Shown here: positions 1,652-53,121 of the stretch, in pieces
How the letters are laid out: each line of letters starts with the position of its first letter
Numbering within the stretch: the first letter of the stretch is position 1
Assembly: GCF_056712565.1 (NCBI RefSeq)
Contig: NZ_CM160072.1
DNA: 64,000 nt
Direction: 5' to 3' (one strand)
Notes under the pieces: model-generated
What the model saw: only the letters and a program-made list of their open reading frames with translations
Database searches by the model: none
Told to the model about the DNA's origin: nothing
Translations under genes and position numbers: made by a program

Positions 1652-3019
1652 ATGATTAGCGTATTCGATATTTTCAAAATCGGCATTGGCCCTTCCAGTT
1701 CTCATACCGTTGGACCAATGAAAGCGGGTAAACAATTTACCGACGATCTGATTGCCCGTAACCTGCTTAAAGACGTGACCCGCGTGGTGGTTGACGTGTA
1801 CGGCTCGCTCTCTCTGACCGGTAAAGGCCACCACACAGATATCGCCATAATTATGGGTCTGGCGGGTAACCTGCCGGATACCGTGGATATCGATTCCATC
1901 CCTGGTTTTATTCAGGATGTGAATACTCATGGTCGCCTGATGCTGGCAAACGGTCAGCATGAAGTGGAGTTCCCGGTTGATCAGTGCATGAACTTCCATG
2001 CCGACAACCTTTCTCTGCATGAAAACGGTATGCGCATTACCGCGCTGGCGGGCGATAAAGTCGTTTACAGCCAGACTTATTACTCTATCGGCGGTGGCTT
2101 TATTGTTGATGAAGAACATTTTGGTCAGCAGGATAGCGCACCGGTTGAAGTTCCTTATCCGTACAGTTCAGCAGCCGATCTGCAAAAACATTGTCAGGAA
2201 ACCGGGCTGTCACTCTCTGGCCTGATGATGAAAAACGAGCTGGCGCTGCACAGCAAAGAAGAGCTGGAACAGCACCTGGCGAACGTCTGGGAAGTCATGC
2301 GTGGCGGTATTGAGCGCGGTATTTCTACCGAAGGCGTGTTACCTGGCAAACTGCGCGTTCCACGCCGTGCTGCGGCACTACGCCGGATGCTGGTCAGCCA
2401 GGATAAAACCACCACTGACCCGATGGCGGTTGTTGACTGGATCAACATGTTTGCACTGGCAGTGAACGAAGAGAATGCTGCTGGCGGTCGCGTGGTGACT
2501 GCGCCGACTAACGGTGCGTGCGGGATTATTCCGGCCGTGCTGGCGTACTACGACAAGTTTATCCGCGAAGTGAACGCTAACTCACTGGCTCGTTACCTGC
2601 TGGTAGCCAGCGCCATTGGTTCTCTTTATAAGATGAACGCCTCGATTTCTGGTGCCGAAGTCGGCTGCCAGGGTGAAGTCGGCGTGGCGTGCTCAATGGC
2701 GGCAGCTGGTCTGGCAGAACTGTTAGGCGCAAGCCCAGCGCAGGTATGCATCGCGGCGGAAATCGCCATGGAGCACAACCTCGGTCTGACGTGTGACCCG
2801 GTCGCCGGGCAGGTACAGGTGCCGTGCATCGAGCGTAACGCCATTGCGGCAGTGAAAGCAGTAAACGCTGCACGTATGGCGCTGCGCCGTACCAGCGAGC
2901 CACGCGTCTGCCTCGACAAAGTTATCGAAACCATGTACGAAACAGGTAAAGATATGAACGCCAAGTACCGTGAAACGTCTCGCGGCGGCCTGGCAATGAA
3001 AATCGTTGCCTGCGATTAA
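1652..3019 (+). CDS. sdaB: L-serine dehydratase 2 (Fe-S)
   Basis: 455-aa [26 protein letters not shown], length and position match SdaB. Confidence 0.95.
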
Positions 3020-18043: not shown

Positions 18044-19141
18044 TCAGCCGCTAAAGACGTTACCTGCGCCCGGGGCGGTTTTCAGCACCCAGACACGTCC
18101 ATAGTGGTTGTACCAACCTGCGCGGTGTCCGGCTTCCGGCCCGATCCCTTGATAGATATCGAAGTGTTGGCCTTTGATTGCGCCACCGACATCCAGCGCC
18201 ACCATCAGACGCAATTCGTACTGACCGTTAAATTTGCCGTTATTATCCAGCAGCGGCACTTCTGCCAGCAAGGTAGTACCTGGCGGAATAATTGAACGAT
18301 CGGAGGCAACAGAAGCACGGCCAACCAGCGGCACCGCACTTGCCCCTTTCACCGGTGCAAAAGATTGCGGTTTAAAGAAGACGAAAGACGGGTTCTGTTC
18401 CAGCAGCTCGCGAACCTCAGCTTCACTGTGTGTTTCGCCCCAGTGACGAATCGCCTGCATCGACATATCTTCTTTTTTCACTTCGCCACGGTCGATCAAC
18501 ACCTTACCAATGCTGCGATAGGCATGACCGTTTTTCCCTGCATAGCTGAAAAAGTTAAGCGGACTGCCATCACCAAAGTCGATATACCCGCTACCCTGCA
18601 CATCCATAATGAAGTTATCCATCAGGGAGTTACTGTAAGCGAGAATATATTTATCACTCAGCGCTCCTGCGTAGATCTCCGCACGAGACGGCAGACGACC
18701 ACGTTTTGGCGGCATACGGTAAATCGGATACTGGAACTCGCCCTGACGGGTATGGCGCGCCTGAATTACCGGCGTGTAATAGCCTGTAAACTGCACGTTA
18801 CCATAGTTGTCGACACCTTCCATCTGCCAGGCATCAATGCCGAACTGGCGCATATTGCGGGTATCACCGCCTGCGCGCAGCCACTCTTGCACCGCGTTAT
18901 AAACATTACTCTGGTTGCCATACAGACGCGGTGACGAATTACGGATATGGTTAATTTGCTCGGCAAAATCACCGGCATTAATCGGCGCGCCAACGGCATC
19001 TGGCTGGTTCACCAGAGAGAAAGGCTGGGTAAATTTCCCGTCTTTATATTGCTGTCCGCGATCGGTTGGTTTGGAAGAGCAGGCGGCAAGCATTGCCACA
19101 ACCGTGCCCATAAGAAGGTACTTTACCCAACGTCCTTTCAT
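18044..19141 (-). CDS. mltA: membrane-bound lytic murein transglycosylase A
   Basis: ORF 18044-19423 runs artefactually through the tRNA genes; the true start MKGRWVKYLLMGTVVAMLAACSS (lipobox) is at 19141, giving 365 aa. Confidence 0.9.
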   Translation of the reverse strand: MKGRWVKYLLMGTVVAMLAACSSKPTDRGQQYKDGKFTQPFSLVNQPDAVGAPINAGDFAEQINHIRNSSPRLYGNQSNVYNAVQEWLRAGGDTRNMRQFGIDAWQMEGVDNYGNVQFTGYYTPVIQARHTRQGEFQYPIYRMPPKRGRLPSRAEIYAGALSDKYILAYSNSLMDNFIMDVQGSGYIDFGDGSPLNFFSYAGKNGHAYRSIGKVLIDRGEVKKEDMSMQAIRHWGETHSEAEVRELLEQNPSFVFFKPQSFAPVKGASAVPLVGRASVASDRSIIPPGTTLLAEVPLLDNNGKFNGQYELRLMVALDVGGAIKGQHFDIYQGIGPEAGHRAGWYNHYGRVWVLKTAPGAGNVFSG

Positions 19142-19349
19142 TGTTCTCTTCTTCAGGTTAAAAAATAAGGCGCAACGAAGATAACAAACCACCGCGTTTA
19201 ATGAAATGAGCAGCCTCTCCCTGACGCAAATTTTGCACAAAAAATAGGCTTTAGTGATTTGTTTTTGTTCAAAATCATGCCGAATCCGTGATCGGGGTAA
19301 AAAAAAGGTTGCATGAAAACGCGAGCAGAGTATAGTGCGCATCCACGGA

Positions 19350-19426
<77 letters not shown>

Positions 19427-19459
19427 ATTAAAATTTGATGAAGTAAAGCAGTACGGTGA

Positions 19460-19536
<77 letters not shown>

Positions 19537-19569
19537 ATCAAAATTTGATGAAATAAAGCAGTACGGTGA

Positions 19570-19632
<63 letters not shown>

Positions 19633-19646
<14 letters not shown>

Positions 19647-19673
19647 ATTTATTAGAATGCTGACAAACCGCAA
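19633..19673 (+). repeat. left 41-bp direct repeat (tRNA 3' end plus downstream), att-like
   Basis: ggcccccgcaaccaatttattagaatgctgacaaaccgcaa, repeated at 50235-50275. Confidence 0.85.
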
Positions 19674-19697
19674 AGCTGCTATTGGCTTGCGGTTTTT
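19661..19697 (+). terminator. Rho-independent terminator after the tRNA operon
   Basis: aaaccgcaaagctgctattggcttgcggtttttt hairpin plus T-run. Confidence 0.6.
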
Positions 19698-20281
19698 TCG
19701 TTTTTACGCTTCCTTACCCGTTTCAGTGAAGCCTGAGACAATGAGTAAACCGTTAATATCCCTCCATCAAAGCCATCCATCTTATTTATATATTAAACAT
19801 ATACCCCATTAATGAATTTCATTTATATATTCTATAAATCAATTTATTTTGGTTATGTTAACATTTCAATATCACAACAGGGCGCTACGCTTATATAATC
19901 ATTGTACAAAAAGCACACAACTTTTTAATTAGTAGAAAAATTAATAATTTTTTGTGAAAGCCCGGACAATAAGTTTAATGAATATCTTAATAGACTCTCA
20001 TACTACCCAATTTCTTAAAAGTGCAAATTTGTGAAGCTTATCCTGTTATTATTTTAAGTTTCATGCCAAATTCTCTCACCAGATAATGCCGCCCTCTTCC
20101 GAAAAATAATCAAGAGGCCAAACAATATCTAAAATGATACAACTGTATCTATTCCCCTGAAAAATACATTATTCATTTGTATATTTTCCTCATCATTGCT
20201 TTTTATTTAAATCATCCGATAATCCCCTGAATATAATTATGTCAATAACCATCAGAAAAAGTGGATGATGAGGAAAAGGAT

Positions 20282-20782
20282 ATGGCTGACAGTTTCCAGA
20301 ATGAAGTTCCCACCGCTCGTGTAAATATCAAGCTTGATCTGCATACAGGCAATGCTAAAAAGAAAGTTGAACTCCCCCTCAAGCTTCTTGCCGTAGGCGA
20401 TTACAGTAACGGAAAAGAGCAACGTCCGCTGTCCGAACGGGACAAGGTTGATATCAATAAAAACAACTTCAACAGCGTCATGGCTGAGTTTTCGCCTGCG
20501 GTTAATTTAACAGTAGAAGATACGCTAAACGGAAACGGTAATGAACAAAATATCGCGCTTGAATTTAAAAGCCTGAAGGATTTTGAACCCGAACAGGTAG
20601 CAAAAAATATTCCGCAACTTCGTGTATTACTCGCTATGCGCAATTTACTACGTGACCTGAAATCCAATCTGCTGGATAACGCAACGTTTCGCCGTGAACT
20701 GGAAAATATTCTGAAAGACCCGACGCTCAGTTCAGAACTGCGTGATGAACTGGCGAAAATTGCGCCGCAGGAGAACGTTTAA
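20282..20782 (+). CDS. tssB: T6SS contractile sheath small subunit TssB
   Basis: MADSFQNEVPTARVNIKLDLHTGNAKKKVELPLKLLAVGDYS, typical TssB/VipA; ATG 20282 after a gaggaaaagga RBS. Confidence 0.9.
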   Translation: MADSFQNEVPTARVNIKLDLHTGNAKKKVELPLKLLAVGDYSNGKEQRPLSERDKVDINKNNFNSVMAEFSPAVNLTVEDTLNGNGNEQNIALEFKSLKDFEPEQVAKNIPQLRVLLAMRNLLRDLKSNLLDNATFRRELENILKDPTLSSELRDELAKIAPQENV

Positions 20783-20840
20783 CCCGAACACGTATTCAGG
20801 TTAAACCGGAGAAGAAAGGATCACTGAAAAGGAAATGCTG

Positions 20841-22379
20841 ATGTCTGTACAACAAGAACATTCCACCTCTGAAACTGCAACACTCACCACCACTGAGTCC
20901 GGCGGCGTTTATCAGTCCCTGTTCGATAAAATTAATTTAACCCCGGTCTCTTCCATTCAGGAAATAGATTTATGGCAAAACAGCGAAACGCTGGCTGATG
21001 CCTCACCCGATGAGCGCGTGACAGCAGCGATTCACGTTCTGCTTTCCTGTCTGGCGAAATCAGGCGAGGACGTGGTTAAGCTCGACAAGAGCCTGCTGGA
21101 TTTTCATATCGACGATCTGGATCAGAAAATCAGTAAACAGCTTGATGCGGTCATGCACCACCCTGAATTCCAGAAAGTCGAGTCGCTGTGGCGTGGTACA
21201 TGGTTCGTCGTACAGCGCACTGATTTTCGCAAAAATGTCAGAATTGAATTGCTGGATATCAGCAAAGAGCATCTGCGTCAGGATTTCGACGACTCCCCGG
21301 AAATCATTCAGAGCGGTTTATATCGTCATACATACATTCAGGAGTACGATACGCCGGGTGGCGAACCTGTTGCCTCATTAATTTCCAGCTATGAATTTGA
21401 TAACAGCCCGCAGGATATTGCCCTGCTGCGCAATATTTCCAGAGTGTCTGCCGCTTCCCATATGCCTTTTATCGGTTCCGTCGGACCGAAATTCTTCCTT
21501 AAAAATTCGATGGAAGAAGTCGCCGCGATTAAAGATATCGGCAACTACTTTGACCGCGCAGAATATATTAAATGGAAGTCGTTCCGCGATACGGATGACA
21601 GCCGCTATGTGGGATTAGTGATGCCGCGAGTGCTGGGCCGTCTGCCCTATGGGCCGGACACGGTGCCGGTACGCAGCTTTAACTATGTGGAAGAAGTCAA
21701 AGGCCCGGATCACGAAAAGTACCTGTGGACAAACGCCTCGTTCGCCTTTGCCGCCAATATGGTGAAGAGCTTTGTGAATAATGGCTGGTGTGTGCAGATC
21801 CGTGGTCCACAGGCAGGTGGCGCAGTAGCCGATCTGCCCATCCATCTTTACGATCTCGGCACCGGCAATCAGGTCAAAATTCCGTCCGAAGTGATGATCC
21901 CGGAAACCCGCGAATTTGAATTTGCCAACCTTGGCTTTATTCCGCTCTCTTATTATAAGAATCGCGATTACGCCTGCTTCTTCTCGGCAAACTCCGCCCA
22001 GAAACCGGCGTTGTATGATACCGCTGACGCCACCGCCAACAGCCGTATTAACGCCCGTCTGCCTTACATCTTCCTGCTGTCCCGCATTGCGCATTACCTG
22101 AAAATCATTCAGCGCGAGAATATCGGTACCACCAAAGACCGCCGCGTACTGGAACTGGAACTGAACACCTGGATCCGCACACTGGTGACGGAGATGACCG
22201 ATCCGGGTGATGAACTGCAGGCGTCTCACCCGCTGCGCGACGGCAAGGTTATCGTGGAAGATATTGAGGACAATCCGGGCTTCTTCCGCGTCAGACTCTT
22301 TGCCGTGCCGCATTTCCAGATTGAAGGGATGGATATCAACCTTTCTCTGGTTTCCCAGATGCCGAAAGCGAAAGCCTGA
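20841..22379 (+). CDS. tssC: T6SS contractile sheath large subunit TssC
   Basis: about 512 aa directly after tssB; start 20835 or 20841. Confidence 0.9.
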   Translation: MSVQQEHSTSETATLTTTESGGVYQSLFDKINLTPVSSIQEIDLWQNSETLADASPDERVTAAIHVLLSCLAKSGEDVVKLDKSLLDFHIDDLDQKISKQLDAVMHHPEFQKVESLWRGTWFVVQRTDFRKNVRIELLDISKEHLRQDFDDSPEIIQSGLYRHTYIQEYDTPGGEPVASLISSYEFDNSPQDIALLRNISRVSAASHMPFIGSVGPKFFLKNSMEEVAAIKDIGNYFDRAEYIKWKSFRDTDDSRYVGLVMPRVLGRLPYGPDTVPVRSFNYVEEVKGPDHEKYLWTNASFAFAANMVKSFVNNGWCVQIRGPQAGGAVADLPIHLYDLGTGNQVKIPSEVMIPETREFEFANLGFIPLSYYKNRDYACFFSANSAQKPALYDTADATANSRINARLPYIFLLSRIAHYLKIIQRENIGTTKDRRVLELELNTWIRTLVTEMTDPGDELQASHPLRDGKVIVEDIEDNPGFFRVRLFAVPHFQIEGMDINLSLVSQMPKAKA

Positions 22380-44084: not shown

Positions 44085-44528
44085 ATGAATATTCAGGCAA
44101 TAAAAGAAATGGTAAATTTAATTTGTAGTTTTTTATTTATATTCTTTCTGTCCTCGGCTTTTGTTTCTTTTGGGTGTTATGCTATTTATGAATTGTTTTT
44201 ATGGAATGATATTATTGTATATAGCTGGGGATATATATTAATTGTCTTTTTACCTTTCACATTATATGTAATGTCGTTTGAGATTTTGTTTTTTGCTATT
44301 AGTGGGCGACGATTGTCTAAAGTAACAATGGTGCGCCTTTGGTTGATAATTAAAATTATTATTGCTTTCTCTATTTGCGCAGTGTTGATTTTTTCTTCAA
44401 TTTACAAAAAAGAATTATTATCTAGAAATTATATTGCTTGTAGTGGTATCCCGTCTGGGTGGATGCCGGGTCTGGCAACGAAATACGTTAAAGAAAAATC
44501 ATTATGCGAAAAAAATGGCAATAATTAA
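44085..44528 (+). CDS. small hypothetical multi-TM protein
   Basis: about 147 aa, four predicted TM helices, extremely AT-rich; possible GTG start at 44067. Confidence 0.4.
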   Translation: MNIQAIKEMVNLICSFLFIFFLSSAFVSFGCYAIYELFLWNDIIVYSWGYILIVFLPFTLYVMSFEILFFAISGRRLSKVTMVRLWLIIKIIIAFSICAVLIFSSIYKKELLSRNYIACSGIPSGWMPGLATKYVKEKSLCEKNGNN

Positions 44529-51945: not shown

Positions 51946-53121
51946 TTATTCTCCCTGATTAATATTTTTAATTACACTCACAAGACGCGTAAGCCCCATA
52001 TATAATTTTTCTCGACCGCAGGCCAGGTTCAGACGAAGGTAGCCCTCCCCCTCCGTTCCATAGACATGCCCCGCCATAATGCCCACTTTGCCTTCATGAA
52101 TTAATCGACTGTAGAATTCATCAAAAGGATAACCAATAGCAGAACAATCTATCCAGGAAAAATAGCAACCATCAGCTGGCCTTACGATCAATTCTGGAAT
52201 ATTTTCATTCAGATACTGCTGGGTGAATTGAATGTTAGAGGCAATATGTGCCTTTAATGACTTTAACCATCCCTCACATTCGTTATAGGCAATAATAGTT
52301 GCAATTATATTCAGTACTGATGGGGAGTTTACAAAATCGCGATACCTCGATATCGTTCTGAACTTATGATTAAAATTATCGTCAGTTGAAATCATATACG
52401 ATCCTGTTAGTGCAGGAACATTAAATGTTTTCGATATCGAGTTAAATACTACTACTTTTTCTTTTTTTATTTTAAGCGCGGATGTAAAGCTACGATTAAA
52501 AACAAAATCACTATGGATTTCATCTGAACATAACCAGACATTATGCCTTGTACAGCTTGCAGCGATTTTATGCAGTTCTTCTTCCGACCAGACTGTTCCT
52601 GTCGGGTTATGAGGATTACATAATAACACCATCTTTGCGCTTTTAATCTTAAGATCAAAATCTTGCCAGTTGATAGCGTAGCCCCCCTCATTTTTTATAA
52701 TCAAAGAGGCTGTCAGAATATTTCGCTCGCTATGTTTAATTACATCAAAAAATGCATTATAGACAGGTGTAAAAACGAGAATATTATCACCATGCGATGT
52801 CAATAACTCTATTGCTTTTGCAATAGAGTACATCACACTGGGGCTATAGGTTATCCATTCAGGTTTAATATCTGTTTGATATTGTTGATAATACCAGTTT
52901 ACTATCGCATTCAGATATTCACCATGTTGCCAACGACTGTACCCTAAAATCGGGTGTTCCAGGCGTTTTTTTAATGCTCTGGTGATAGCGTCTGGTATCG
53001 GAAGATCCATATCTGAAATAGAGAATGGTAGTACATCTTTTACACCAAATCTGTCCTCGCAAAAGTCCCATTGGGTACAATATGTTCCTTTGCGGGAAAC
53101 AGGAGTATTAAAAACATCCAT
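51946..53121 (-). CDS. PLP-dependent class I/II aminotransferase (MalY/PatB-like C-S lyase)
   Basis: 391 aa; SISKTFN PLP-lysine motif. Confidence 0.7.
   Translation of the reverse strand: MDVFNTPVSRKGTYCTQWDFCEDRFGVKDVLPFSISDMDLPIPDAITRALKKRLEHPILGYSRWQHGEYLNAIVNWYYQQYQTDIKPEWITYSPSVMYSIAKAIELLTSHGDNILVFTPVYNAFFDVIKHSERNILTASLIIKNEGGYAINWQDFDLKIKSAKMVLLCNPHNPTGTVWSEEELHKIAASCTRHNVWLCSDEIHSDFVFNRSFTSALKIKKEKVVVFNSISKTFNVPALTGSYMISTDDNFNHKFRTISRYRDFVNSPSVLNIIATIIAYNECEGWLKSLKAHIASNIQFTQQYLNENIPELIVRPADGCYFSWIDCSAIGYPFDEFYSRLIHEGKVGIMAGHVYGTEGEGYLRLNLACGREKLYMGLTRLVSVIKNINQGE

What the first reader, a model, noticed from the sequence alone, without database searches (positions are those of the whole stretch)
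19698..20281. AT-rich 580-bp leader upstream of tssB
This long non-coding stretch between the tRNA terminator and tssB is strongly AT-rich with many A/T tracts and no ORF. Such leaders in horizontally acquired T6SS loci often hold the main promoter and are frequently silenced by nucleoid proteins.
Basis: inference. Interest (0 to 1): 0.35.

Follow-up and report, generated by a model that had tools for sequence, protein, structure and literature searches.

The report
Known AT-rich T6SS control region
This AT-rich, gene-free stretch is the already-studied control region in front of the type VI secretion genes that about a quarter of E. coli strains carry next to the metV tRNA gene, so it is real but ordinary.

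Summary
Window 19698-20281 is 30.3% G+C against 50.9% for the window. It has no conserved ORF, no Rfam match and no RefSeq feature in any listed hit row of 1,337 matching E. coli genomes. It runs from the terminator after metZ-metW-metV to the tssB ATG at 20282.

The window is identical over this stretch to E. coli ATCC 11775. The leader is the 5' edge of a ~36-kb island, absent from K-12, that carries the ExPEC "T6SS1" cluster.

The region has already been studied. The Fur EMSA primers of Ma et al. 2018 map exactly to 20022-20281. H-NS/StpA ChIP-seq in CFT073, whose leader is 633/635 identical, lists the flanking tRNA-Met and tssB as bound, but not tssC to vgrG.

Caveats:
- No transcription start site is mapped.
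- An hns single deletion did not activate the cluster in APEC.
- No Fur peak near these genes was found in the held text of the CFT073 genome-wide tables.
- Fur-box similarity is at chance level.

New here:
- The leader is E. coli-specific. A ~95% identical T6SS in Entomohabitans has a different leader from 25 nt upstream of the ATG.
- A 13-nt perfect anti-Shine-Dalgarno repeat lies 68 nt upstream of its partner. Its function is unproven.

Verdict: already known, low interest.

The parts
19350..19646 (+). metZ-metW-metV, three tRNA-fMet genes. This is core-genome context, and the island begins immediately 3' of metV.
   Evidence: ARAGORN, Rfam RF00005, RefSeq annotation. The K-12 alignment diverges within a few bases after the tRNA 3' end.
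19665..19699 (+). Island-borne intrinsic terminator, the 3' external spacer of the tRNA operon. It shields the T6SS genes from tRNA-operon read-through.
   Evidence: Hairpin plus U-run, -16.6 kcal/mol, z = -2.3. K-12 has a different sequence here. The stem is kept in all 11 alleles, while the loop and bulge vary.
19698..20281 (.). The finding: a 584-bp AT-rich non-coding stretch (30.3% G+C) between the terminator and tssB.
   Evidence: No annotated feature in any listed hit row. No Rfam hit.
19701..20021 (.). Distal half. It lies outside the published Fur probe and is the more variable part. It is probably part of the H-NS/StpA-coated patch. One genome has an IS1 inserted after 19840.
   Evidence: 6-22% variable columns per 50 bp here, against 0-8% in the proximal 185 bp. 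CFT073 ChIP rows c5568 and tssB flank it. IS1 variant in L005.
19871..19899 (+). Best sigma-70 consensus match in the leader (ATCACA-17-TATAAT, 10/12). It would give a 5' UTR of about 375 nt. It is a candidate only.
   Evidence: The count of promoter-like sites is not above shuffles (6 against 4.1 +/- 2.0). The hexamers are kept in ten of eleven alleles and the O4:H5 allele has TATAAC. Most variation is in the spacer.
20022..20281 (+). Proximal half, which is the published 'T6SS1' promoter fragment bound by Fur in EMSA.
   Evidence: Primers T6SS1-F and T6SS1-R of PMC5874247 Table S2 map with 0 mismatches to 20022-20042 (+) and 20261-20281 (-). Their negative-control primer maps inside tssB at 20387.
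20157..20185 (+). Second sigma-70-like match (CTGAAA-17-TATATT, 9/12). The start site would fall near 20192.
20223..20253 (+). Consensus TATAAT (20232-20237) overlapped by weak Fur-box-like matches, three of the four in 6-bp register (11-12 of 19). From 20228 on it lies in the block invariant in all 11 alleles (20228-20281). This is the most likely core promoter and operator.
   Evidence: The similarity is no better than chance for this composition, so the assignment is inference.
20184..20204 (+). Anti-Shine-Dalgarno arm. TTTTCCTCATCAT (20184-20196) is perfectly complementary to the tssB ribosome-binding region.
   Evidence: Inverted repeat I3, 13 nt, 100% complementary. RNAfold extends it to about 21 bp. 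P about 0.0013 for a complement this long to the SD region in Markov-shuffled leaders.
20256..20281 (+). Shine-Dalgarno region of tssB (GAGGAAAAGGA, 20270-20280) and second arm of the inverted repeat (20265-20277). The last 24 nt are the only part of the leader shared with Entomohabitans.
20282..20782 (+). tssB (vipA), first gene of the T6SS1 cluster. It is listed as H-NS- and StpA-bound in CFT073.
   Evidence: RefSeq annotation. PMC9765446 Data set S1E.

Best explanation
The stretch is the cis-regulatory region of the E. coli metV-island type VI secretion cluster, called 'T6SS1' in ExPEC and APEC.

Shown:
- It is the 5' edge of a horizontally acquired island.
- It starts with its own terminator, which ends the strong tRNA operon.
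- The rest is AT-rich and non-coding.

Shown by others on 99.7-100% identical DNA:
- Fur binds the proximal 260 bp in vitro, and destroying the predicted Fur boxes or deleting fur raises tssB expression.
- In CFT073 grown in rich medium, an H-NS/StpA patch covers the tRNA-leader-tssB interval and does not reach tssC, and the cluster is not transcribed.

Inferred mechanism:
- A sigma-70 promoter lies in the invariant block around TATAAT 20232-20237.
- It is kept off in iron-replete rich medium by Fur bound over the core promoter, and by an H-NS/StpA filament nucleated on the whole AT-rich leader.
- Iron limitation, as in serum or minimal medium, relieves Fur.
- Loss of H-NS alone is not enough, because StpA and Fur remain.
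- The distal 320 bp probably serves only as H-NS loading surface and insulator.
For: Identity of the locus:
- The leader (19647-20281) is 100% identical to ATCC 11775, and RefSeq annotates mltA, 3 tRNA-Met, tssB, tssC, tssK, tssL....
- K-12 has amiC directly after metV and diverges right after the tRNA.
- The leader is single-copy in 1,336 of 5,426 complete genomes. 1,340 genomes hold tssB at >=95% identity, which nearly matches the 1,336 with the leader.

Fur:
- The EMSA primers map exactly to 20022-20281.
- Fur shifts the fragment. Fur-box mutation, fur deletion or iron limitation raise expression (PMC5874247).

H-NS:
- The CFT073 leader differs at 2 of 635 positions.
- Data set S1E lists consecutive H-NS-bound genes c5568 (77 nt), tssB (501 nt, occupancy 0.32), then c3394. 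So tssC to vgrG are unbound.
- tssH is in class I, with RNAP at background.
- RfaH-marked transcription of tssH to c3398 appears only in the hns stpA double mutant.

Sequence:
- G+C is 30%, and TpA steps are twice the window average.
- The proximal 185 bp is the least variable part and 20228-20281 is invariant in 11 alleles.
- A long AT-rich ORF-free stretch upstream of tssB is general in this T6SS family: median 625 bp and a G+C drop of 18 points across 79 loci.
Against: - No transcription start site has been mapped in any paper I could find. Sigma-70-like matches are no more frequent than in shuffles.
- Fur-box similarity is weak. The best match is 13/19 in the distal half and 12/19 in the EMSA fragment, with p = 0.35-0.44 against Markov shuffles.
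- c3385-c3392 and coordinates 32228xx-32230xx are absent from the held supplementary text of the CFT073 Fur ChIP-seq study, whose peak table does list neighbours c3364, c3366 and c3437. The same gene names, c3385-c3392 and tssB, are absent from the nine-strain Fur ChIP-exo study, which includes CFT073 and W.
- The hns single deletion had no effect on hcp1-clpV1-vgrG1 in APEC TW-XM.
- Overall leader divergence between the B2 and W alleles (8.3%) is close to four-fold-site divergence in tssBC (9.5%), so most of the leader is not visibly constrained.
Confidence: 0.75

Rival explanations
1. Minimal promoter plus neutral spacer. Only the last 60-150 bp is functional, and the distal 320-430 bp is decaying island-edge DNA with no sequence-specific role. 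Any H-NS binding there would be a passive result of AT-richness.
For: - The distal half has 6-22% variable columns per 50 bp, with indels and a length-variable C-tract. This is at or above the four-fold-site divergence of tssBC, 9.5%.
- About 250 bp of upstream DNA sufficed for Fur-responsive expression in the published construct.
- The whole leader is replaced by unrelated AT-rich DNA in Entomohabitans, although the T6SS genes are about 95% identical.
- No regulator motif stands out.
Against: - Long AT-rich leaders are kept across the family whatever their sequence, which suggests that length and composition are themselves selected.
- The best sigma-70 match lies in the distal half.
- This rival is largely compatible with the best explanation rather than opposed to it.
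Confidence: 0.35
2. Post-transcriptional control. Transcripts that start upstream of 20184 carry an anti-Shine-Dalgarno sequence. It forms a stem of about 21 bp with the tssB ribosome-binding site and blocks translation until the stem is opened or cleaved, for example by RNase III, an sRNA or a protein. Shorter transcripts would escape this block.
For: - A perfect 13-nt complement links 20184-20196 and 20265-20277. P is about 0.0013 for so long a complement to the SD region.
- The minimum-free-energy fold pairs the SD. 20180-20300 folds at -26.5 kcal/mol, z = -2.4.
- Predicted SD accessibility is 0.14, the lowest of 80 loci, at the 4th percentile of shuffled upstream sequence.
- Both arms are identical in 7 of 11 alleles.
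Against: - It needs a start site upstream of 20184, which is unknown. Two of the three candidate promoters (20157-20185 and TATAAT 20232-20237) would leave out arm 1 wholly or partly.
- A 13-nt inverted repeat somewhere in the leader occurs in 13% of shuffles.
- Four of the five W-clade alleles sampled carry an uncompensated C-to-A change at 20191, and no covariation exists to test.
- SD occlusion is not a shared feature of orthologous leaders, whose median percentile is 0.5.
- The finding is post hoc.
Confidence: 0.15
3. The stretch hides an unannotated gene, either a small protein or a small RNA.
For: - ORFs of 15-51 aa exist on both strands.
- A minus-strand 15-aa ORF (20176-20129) is preceded by a copy of the tssB SD sequence.
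Against: - The 51-aa ORF is frameshifted by 1-2 bp C-tract length changes in the W-clade alleles.
- The 28-aa ORF is broken by a 4-bp deletion in two alleles.
- The 15-aa ORF loses its start codon in two alleles.
- No Rfam match at E <= 1.
- No terminator-like site inside the leader.
- No RefSeq feature in any listed hit row.
Confidence: 0.04
4. The cluster is driven by a sigma-54 promoter with an enhancer-binding protein, or by the Fur/Dam epigenetic switch described for EAEC sci-1.
For: Both mechanisms are documented for other T6SS clusters. The EAEC sci-1 case is cited, and Vibrio RpoN papers appear.
Against: - No TGGCAC-N5-TTGC match within 2 mismatches.
- No GATC site anywhere in the leader.
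- No DNA similarity to any other E. coli T6SS leader, even with word-11 blastn. The APEC authors also report no identity to the sci-1 promoter.
Confidence: 0.03

Closest known systems
APEC/ExPEC 'T6SS1' promoter region (Ma et al. 2018, Emerg Microbes Infect 7:49, PMC5874247)
   Same: It is the same DNA. Their EMSA primers and negative-control primer match the window with 0 mismatches at 20022-20042, 20261-20281 and 20387-20407. The gene order also matches, with tssB(vipA)...hcp1-clpV1-vgrG1-Tle4/Tli4.
   Different: Their work covers only the proximal 260 bp. The -10, -35 and Fur boxes were predicted, not mapped. The distal 320 bp, the terminator and the anti-SD repeat are not discussed.
H-NS/StpA-bound loci of UPEC CFT073 (Hustmyer et al. 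2022, mBio 13:e02662-22, PMC9765446)
   Same: The CFT073 leader is 633/635 identical. tssB and the adjacent tRNA gene are on the list of H-NS- and StpA-bound genes. The ops site they report for tssH is at the orthologous position, CFT073 3229485, which is window 26742.
   Different: They did not analyse the tssB leader. They treated tssH as a separate cryptic RfaH-regulated unit, and noted H-NS 'bound internally and upstream' of it.
EAEC 042 sci-1 (T6SS-1) promoter: Fur boxes overlapping Dam GATC sites (Brunet et al. 2011, cited)
   Same: It fronts the same T6SS subtype and gene order and is reported to be Fur-repressed and induced by iron limitation.
   Different: There is no sequence similarity and no GATC site in this leader, so the methylation switch cannot operate here. 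The EAEC-type tssB is only 60-80% identical.
H-NS-silenced SPI-6 T6SS of Salmonella and the EHEC T6SS (cited)
   Same: All are AT-rich upstream regions of horizontally acquired T6SS clusters occupied by H-NS.
   Different: In those systems deleting hns alone derepresses the cluster. Here the single deletion had no effect in APEC.

Membership tests
Xenogeneic, H-NS/StpA-coated promoter region | AT-rich relative to the host genome over several hundred bp | tested here: met
   30.3% against 50.9% G+C over 584 bp. TpA density is 10.6 against 4.7 per 100 bp.
Xenogeneic, H-NS/StpA-coated promoter region | Lies in horizontally acquired DNA | tested here: met
   Absent from K-12, with the junction right after metV. 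Present in 1,336 of 5,426 complete genomes. No att repeat of the tRNA 3' end within the 64-kb window, which spans the island. No integrase is annotated in the island.
Xenogeneic, H-NS/StpA-coated promoter region | H-NS occupancy in vivo | not testable with these tools
   Published ChIP-seq in CFT073 lists the flanking genes c5568 (tRNA, 77 nt) and tssB as bound by H-NS and StpA, with occupancy 0.32. I confirmed that the leader is 633/635 identical.
Xenogeneic, H-NS/StpA-coated promoter region | Derepression when the silencer is removed | not testable with these tools
   The literature is mixed. There was no activation of hcp1-clpV1-vgrG1 in APEC delta-hns. [quoted passage not shown]
Fur-repressed promoter | Recognisable Fur box (19-bp GATAATGATAATCATTATC) overlapping the core promoter | tested here: inconclusive
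   The best match in the EMSA fragment is 12/19 at 20235-20253, with three of the four overlapping 11-12/19 matches at 20223-20253 in 6-bp register. The best overall is 13/19 at 19968-19992. Neither is better than Markov shuffles, p = 0.33-0.44.
Fur-repressed promoter | Fur binding in vitro and derepression in a fur mutant or on iron limitation | not testable with these tools
   Published for this exact fragment in APEC TW-XM.
Fur-repressed promoter | Fur occupancy in vivo | not testable with these tools
   No entry for c3385-c3392, or for coordinates near 3.2229 Mb, in the held CFT073 Fur ChIP-seq tables. No entry for those gene names in the held Fur pan-regulon supplements. This is absence from held text and does not prove absence.
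EAEC sci-1 Fur/Dam switch | GATC sites overlapping Fur boxes, and homology to the sci-1 promoter | tested here: not met
   Zero GATC sites in 19698-20281. No distant blastn hit to any other T6SS leader in 5,426 genomes.
Sigma-54-dependent T6SS promoter | -24/-12 element TGGCAC-N5-TTGCW | tested here: not met
   The best match has 3 mismatches of 11 and lies on the minus strand.
5'-UTR anti-SD translational repressor or RNA thermometer | Sequence complementary to the SD within the same transcript | tested here: inconclusive
   The complementarity is present and unlikely by chance. Whether arm 1 is transcribed is unknown. There is no covariation, and four of the five W-clade alleles sampled carry an uncompensated mismatch. 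It is not recurrent in orthologs. A stem of about 21 bp at -26 kcal/mol is too stable for a thermometer (inference).
Any curated RNA family (Rfam 15) | Covariance-model match | tested here: not met
   Only the three tRNAs match at E <= 1 in 19000-21000.

The most novel reading that the evidence does not exclude
The E. coli-specific leader has acquired an anti-Shine-Dalgarno element (20184-20204). With a distal promoter near 19871-19899 it would give a long 5' UTR of about 375 nt in which tssB translation is blocked by a stem of about 21 bp. T6SS sheath synthesis would then be gated after transcription as well as by Fur and H-NS. The sharp homology break 25 nt upstream of the ATG, relative to Entomohabitans, would mark swapping of whole regulatory modules between hosts.
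Probability: 0.12. Interest if true: 0.45.

Novelty: already known. Interest (0 to 1): 0.17.

Why it matters
The leader controls the T6SS that ExPEC, APEC, ST131, Nissle 1917 and E. coli W use for interbacterial killing and that has been linked to virulence. Knowing when it fires therefore bears on gut colonisation and on the behaviour of probiotic strains.

The main actors, Fur and H-NS/StpA, have already been reported. What is still missing is modest but concrete:
- a mapped start site;
- in-vivo confirmation of Fur binding, where the in-vitro and genome-wide data appear to disagree;
- a test of whether the distal half and the anti-SD repeat do anything.

The comparison with Entomohabitans shows that regulatory leaders of near-identical T6SS clusters can be exchanged wholesale. 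That is a small but clean example of regulatory-module replacement after horizontal transfer.

Tried and rejected
- Rfam search of 19000-21000 at E <= 1 found only the tRNAs.
- Sigma-70 and terminator scan: promoter-like sites are not enriched, and the tool missed the bulged tRNA terminator, which I confirmed by folding.
- Fur consensus scan of the leader, the whole window and 79 orthologous leaders showed no enrichment. Sequence alone therefore cannot place the Fur boxes.
- Motif scans for CRP, sigma-54, IHF, CpxR, FNR, ArcA, RcsB, PhoP and the Lang H-NS motif gave nothing convincing. The 8/10 CRP-like site at 19953-19968 is not conserved in the W alleles.
- A-tract phasing is absent, p = 0.53.
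- Word-11 blastn of the leader against 5,426 E. coli genomes found no paralogous or diverged copies.
- The TssB-guided scan of GTDB representative genomes gave 80 loci. blastn of the leader against them found only the last 24 nt, in Entomohabitans. MAFFT of the two leaders shows no real homology. Phylogenetic footprinting beyond E. coli is therefore impossible.
- Within-species footprinting with 11 alleles gives a gradient but too little variation for motif-level resolution or covariation.
- The small-ORF hypothesis was rejected because of frameshifts or start-codon loss in other alleles.
- A search for an att direct repeat of the tRNA 3' end found none.
- Literature searches for a mapped start site in UPEC or Nissle found none.
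- A search for further regulators of APEC T6SS1 found only the one paper. The CpxR paper concerns hcp2B of the other cluster, T6SS2, and does not apply here.

Full report
WHAT IS THERE

The window matches E. coli ATCC 11775 at 100% identity over the leader (19647-20281). RefSeq annotation of that genome gives the order csdA-csdE, tcdA, mltA (-), three tRNA-Met genes, then tssB, tssC, tssK, tssL, an OmpA-family gene, hcp, tssH, vgrG, a lipase/esterase effector with Tli4-family immunity, PAAR, tssM, tssA and so on.

ARAGORN and Rfam place the tRNA-fMet genes at 19350-19646. The tssB ATG is at 20282. In K-12 the gene after metV is amiC, and the two genomes diverge within a few bases of the tRNA 3' end. 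The finding therefore sits at the very 5' edge of a roughly 36-kb island that holds the T6SS plus a PTS/sugar operon and ends at amiC. The 64-kb window, which spans the island, holds no direct repeat of the tRNA 3' end. No integrase is annotated in the island.

CHECK OF THE OBSERVATION

- Composition. 19698-20281 is 584 bp at 30.3% G+C, against 50.9% for the window. Only 1.2% of equal-sized windows are below 32%, and these lie in other AT-rich patches of the island.
- Left boundary. It is a real intrinsic terminator at about 19665-19699 (-16.6 kcal/mol, z = -2.3). It belongs to the island, not to the core genome.
- Coding. The region has no conserved ORF. The 51-aa, 28-aa and 15-aa ORFs are frameshifted or lose their start codon in other alleles.
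- Annotation. There is no Rfam match. No RefSeq feature lies under the match in any hit row listed, out of 1,337 matching genomes.
- A/T tracts. Their number (15) is what the composition predicts (11.1 +/- 2.9), and they are not helically phased.

The word 'leader' presumes transcription, which has not been shown.

DISTRIBUTION AND EVOLUTION

The leader is single-copy in 1,336 of 5,426 complete E. coli genomes. These include CFT073, ABU 83972, Nissle 1917, ATCC 25922, ST131 strains and E. coli W. 1,340 genomes hold tssB at 95% identity or more, nearly matching the 1,336 with the leader. The 193 genomes whose best tssB match is 60-80% identical (EAEC type) have unrelated leaders.

Among 11 alleles, variable columns run at 6-22% per 50 bp in the distal part and 0-8% in the proximal 185 bp. 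20228-20281 is invariant. Overall divergence between the B2 and W alleles (8.3%) is close to four-fold-site divergence in tssBC (9.5%). Most of the leader therefore looks nearly neutral, and only the promoter-proximal part looks constrained.

Outside E. coli, a TssB-guided scan of GTDB representative genomes returned 80 loci. The closest is Entomohabitans teleogrylli. Its T6SS genes are about 94-99% identical in DNA, but identity stops abruptly 25 nt upstream of the ATG. Upstream lies a different AT-rich leader of about 590 bp, and an integrase gene lies about 1.3 kb further up. Across 79 loci the ORF-free stretch upstream of tssB has a median length of 625 bp and a G+C content 18 points below the coding DNA. 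A long AT-rich leader is thus a family trait, while its sequence is not conserved.

WHAT IS ALREADY PUBLISHED ABOUT THIS EXACT DNA

(a) Ma et al. 2018 (PMC5874247), APEC TW-XM 'T6SS1'.
- Their EMSA primers T6SS1-F and T6SS1-R map with no mismatch to 20022-20042 and 20261-20281. Their negative-control primer maps inside tssB.
- They report that Fur shifts this fragment.
- Point mutations in two predicted Fur boxes abolish the shift and raise vipA expression from a plasmid carrying about 250 bp of upstream DNA.
- fur deletion, iron limitation and 50% duck serum induce hcp1 and clpV1.
- hns deletion does not activate hcp1-clpV1-vgrG1.
- The region has no similarity to the EAEC sci-1 promoter.

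(b) Hustmyer et al. 2022 (PMC9765446), CFT073.
- The CFT073 leader differs from the window at 2 of 635 positions.
[quoted passage not shown].
- The rows are consecutive, so tssC through vgrG are not bound. The H-NS/StpA patch is confined to the tRNA-leader-tssB interval.
- hdeA, a classical H-NS target, has the same scaled occupancy of 0.32.
- tssH had RNAP at background in rich medium. RfaH-marked transcription of tssH to c3398 appeared only in the double mutant.

POINTS THAT DO NOT FIT NEATLY

- No start site is mapped.
- Sigma-70-like matches (19871-19899, 10/12; 20157-20185, 9/12) are no more numerous than in shuffles.
- The consensus TATAAT at 20232-20237 has a poor -35 (sequence).
- Fur-consensus similarity is at chance level: at most 13/19, p = 0.35-0.44.
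- The CFT073 Fur ChIP-seq peak table lists neighbours such as c3364, c3366 and c3437. The held text has no c3385-c3392 entry and no coordinate near 3.2229 Mb. The held supplements of the nine-strain Fur ChIP-exo study, which includes CFT073, W and KO11FL, also lack those gene names. This is absence from the text held, and the files may be incomplete. Even so, in-vivo Fur occupancy remains unconfirmed.

MOST LIKELY MECHANISM

The island brings its own terminator, which stops the strong tRNA operon from reading into the T6SS (shown by sequence; the insulating function is inferred). Downstream, the AT-rich DNA loads an H-NS/StpA filament that reaches into tssB (published ChIP).

The core promoter is most probably in the invariant block around TATAAT 20232-20237. 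That block is overlapped by weak Fur-like matches, three of the four in 6-bp register, at 20223-20253 (inference and the published fragment). Fur plus iron, together with H-NS/StpA, keep it off in rich medium, and iron limitation relieves Fur. The lack of effect of a single hns deletion is explained by StpA and Fur remaining in place (inference).

I also infer that the 'indirect' H-NS effect on tssH reported in CFT073 could simply be RNAP that starts at the de-silenced tssB promoter, reads through the hcp terminator (26618-26644, -19.9 kcal/mol, z = -4.4) and picks up RfaH at the ops site at 26742-26753. This is untested.

A NEW BUT UNPROVEN FEATURE

TTTTCCTCATCAT (20184-20196) is perfectly complementary to ATGATGAGGAAAA (20265-20277), which contains the tssB Shine-Dalgarno sequence.

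In its favour:
- RNAfold extends the pairing to about 21 bp. 20180-20300 folds at -26.5 kcal/mol, z = -2.4.
- A complement of 13 nt or more to the SD region arises in about 0.13% of Markov-shuffled leaders.
- Predicted SD accessibility (0.14) is the lowest among 80 loci.

Against it:
- It matters only if transcription starts upstream of 20184.
- A 13-nt inverted repeat somewhere in the leader occurs in 13% of shuffles.
- Four of the five W-clade alleles sampled have an uncompensated mismatch.
- SD occlusion is not shared by orthologous leaders.

Arm 2 lies in the 24 nt shared with Entomohabitans, and arm 1 lies in the E. coli-specific part. I rate a functional role at about 0.12-0.15.

COMPARISON WITH KNOWN SYSTEMS AND VERDICT

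- This is the known T6SS1 promoter region of ExPEC and APEC. It behaves like other xenogeneic T6SS promoters that are coated by H-NS and repressed by Fur.
- It is not homologous to the EAEC sci-1 promoter. With no GATC site it cannot work as a Fur/Dam switch.
- It has no sigma-54 element.
- The finding is real, correctly interpreted in outline and already described. Interest is low.

Noticed in passing
window 26742-26753 (+), in the hcp-tssH spacer 26611-26801: A perfect RfaH-recruiting ops element, GGCGGTAGCGTG. It is orthologous to the tssH ops site reported in CFT073 at 3229485. The T6SS cluster therefore has an internal untranslated spacer where RfaH can load.
   Followed up: partly
window 26618-26644 (+): A strong intrinsic terminator immediately after hcp (9-bp GC-rich stem plus U5, -19.9 kcal/mol, z = -4.4). 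It suggests that tssB-hcp is a separately attenuated unit upstream of tssH.
   Followed up: partly
L007 (Entomohabitans teleogrylli NZ_LLXO01000037.1) 857-1651 and 2400-3000: A T6SS cluster about 95% identical in DNA to the E. coli one sits behind a completely different AT-rich leader. An integrase gene (Pfam Integrase_1, E = 5e-60) lies about 1.3 kb upstream. Homology to E. coli ends exactly 25 nt before the tssB ATG.
   Followed up: partly
L005 (NZ_OZ040950.1), junction after window position 19840: One genome keeps only the first 194 nt after metV. An IS1 follows, and the 5' part of the T6SS cluster is deleted down to vgrG. This is an IS insertion into the AT-rich leader.
   Followed up: no
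window about 19758-19765: A C-rich run (CCCTCC in this strain) is a homopolymeric C-tract of variable length, 6-8 C, in the W-clade alleles. The T-run at 19948-19953 is T6 or T7. These are possible slippage sites of unknown consequence.
   Followed up: no
window 19647-19700: The 3' external transcribed spacer of the metZWV operon is supplied by the island and differs entirely from K-12. It has an AU-rich stretch followed by a terminator hairpin and U-tail, the general shape of Hfq-binding 3'ETS-derived RNAs. It was not tested.
   Followed up: no
window about 32840-34300, 41960-44500 and 52080-55240: There are further patches below 36% G+C inside the island. By gene length, the first and last correspond to c3394 and c3405-c3409, which are H-NS-bound in the CFT073 ChIP-seq list.
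   Followed up: partly
window 20282-22379, compared with L004 (ST131): The ST131 allele differs from this strain by 13% at four-fold sites in tssBC but by only 2.2% in the leader. This suggests recombination with a breakpoint near the start of tssB.
   Followed up: no
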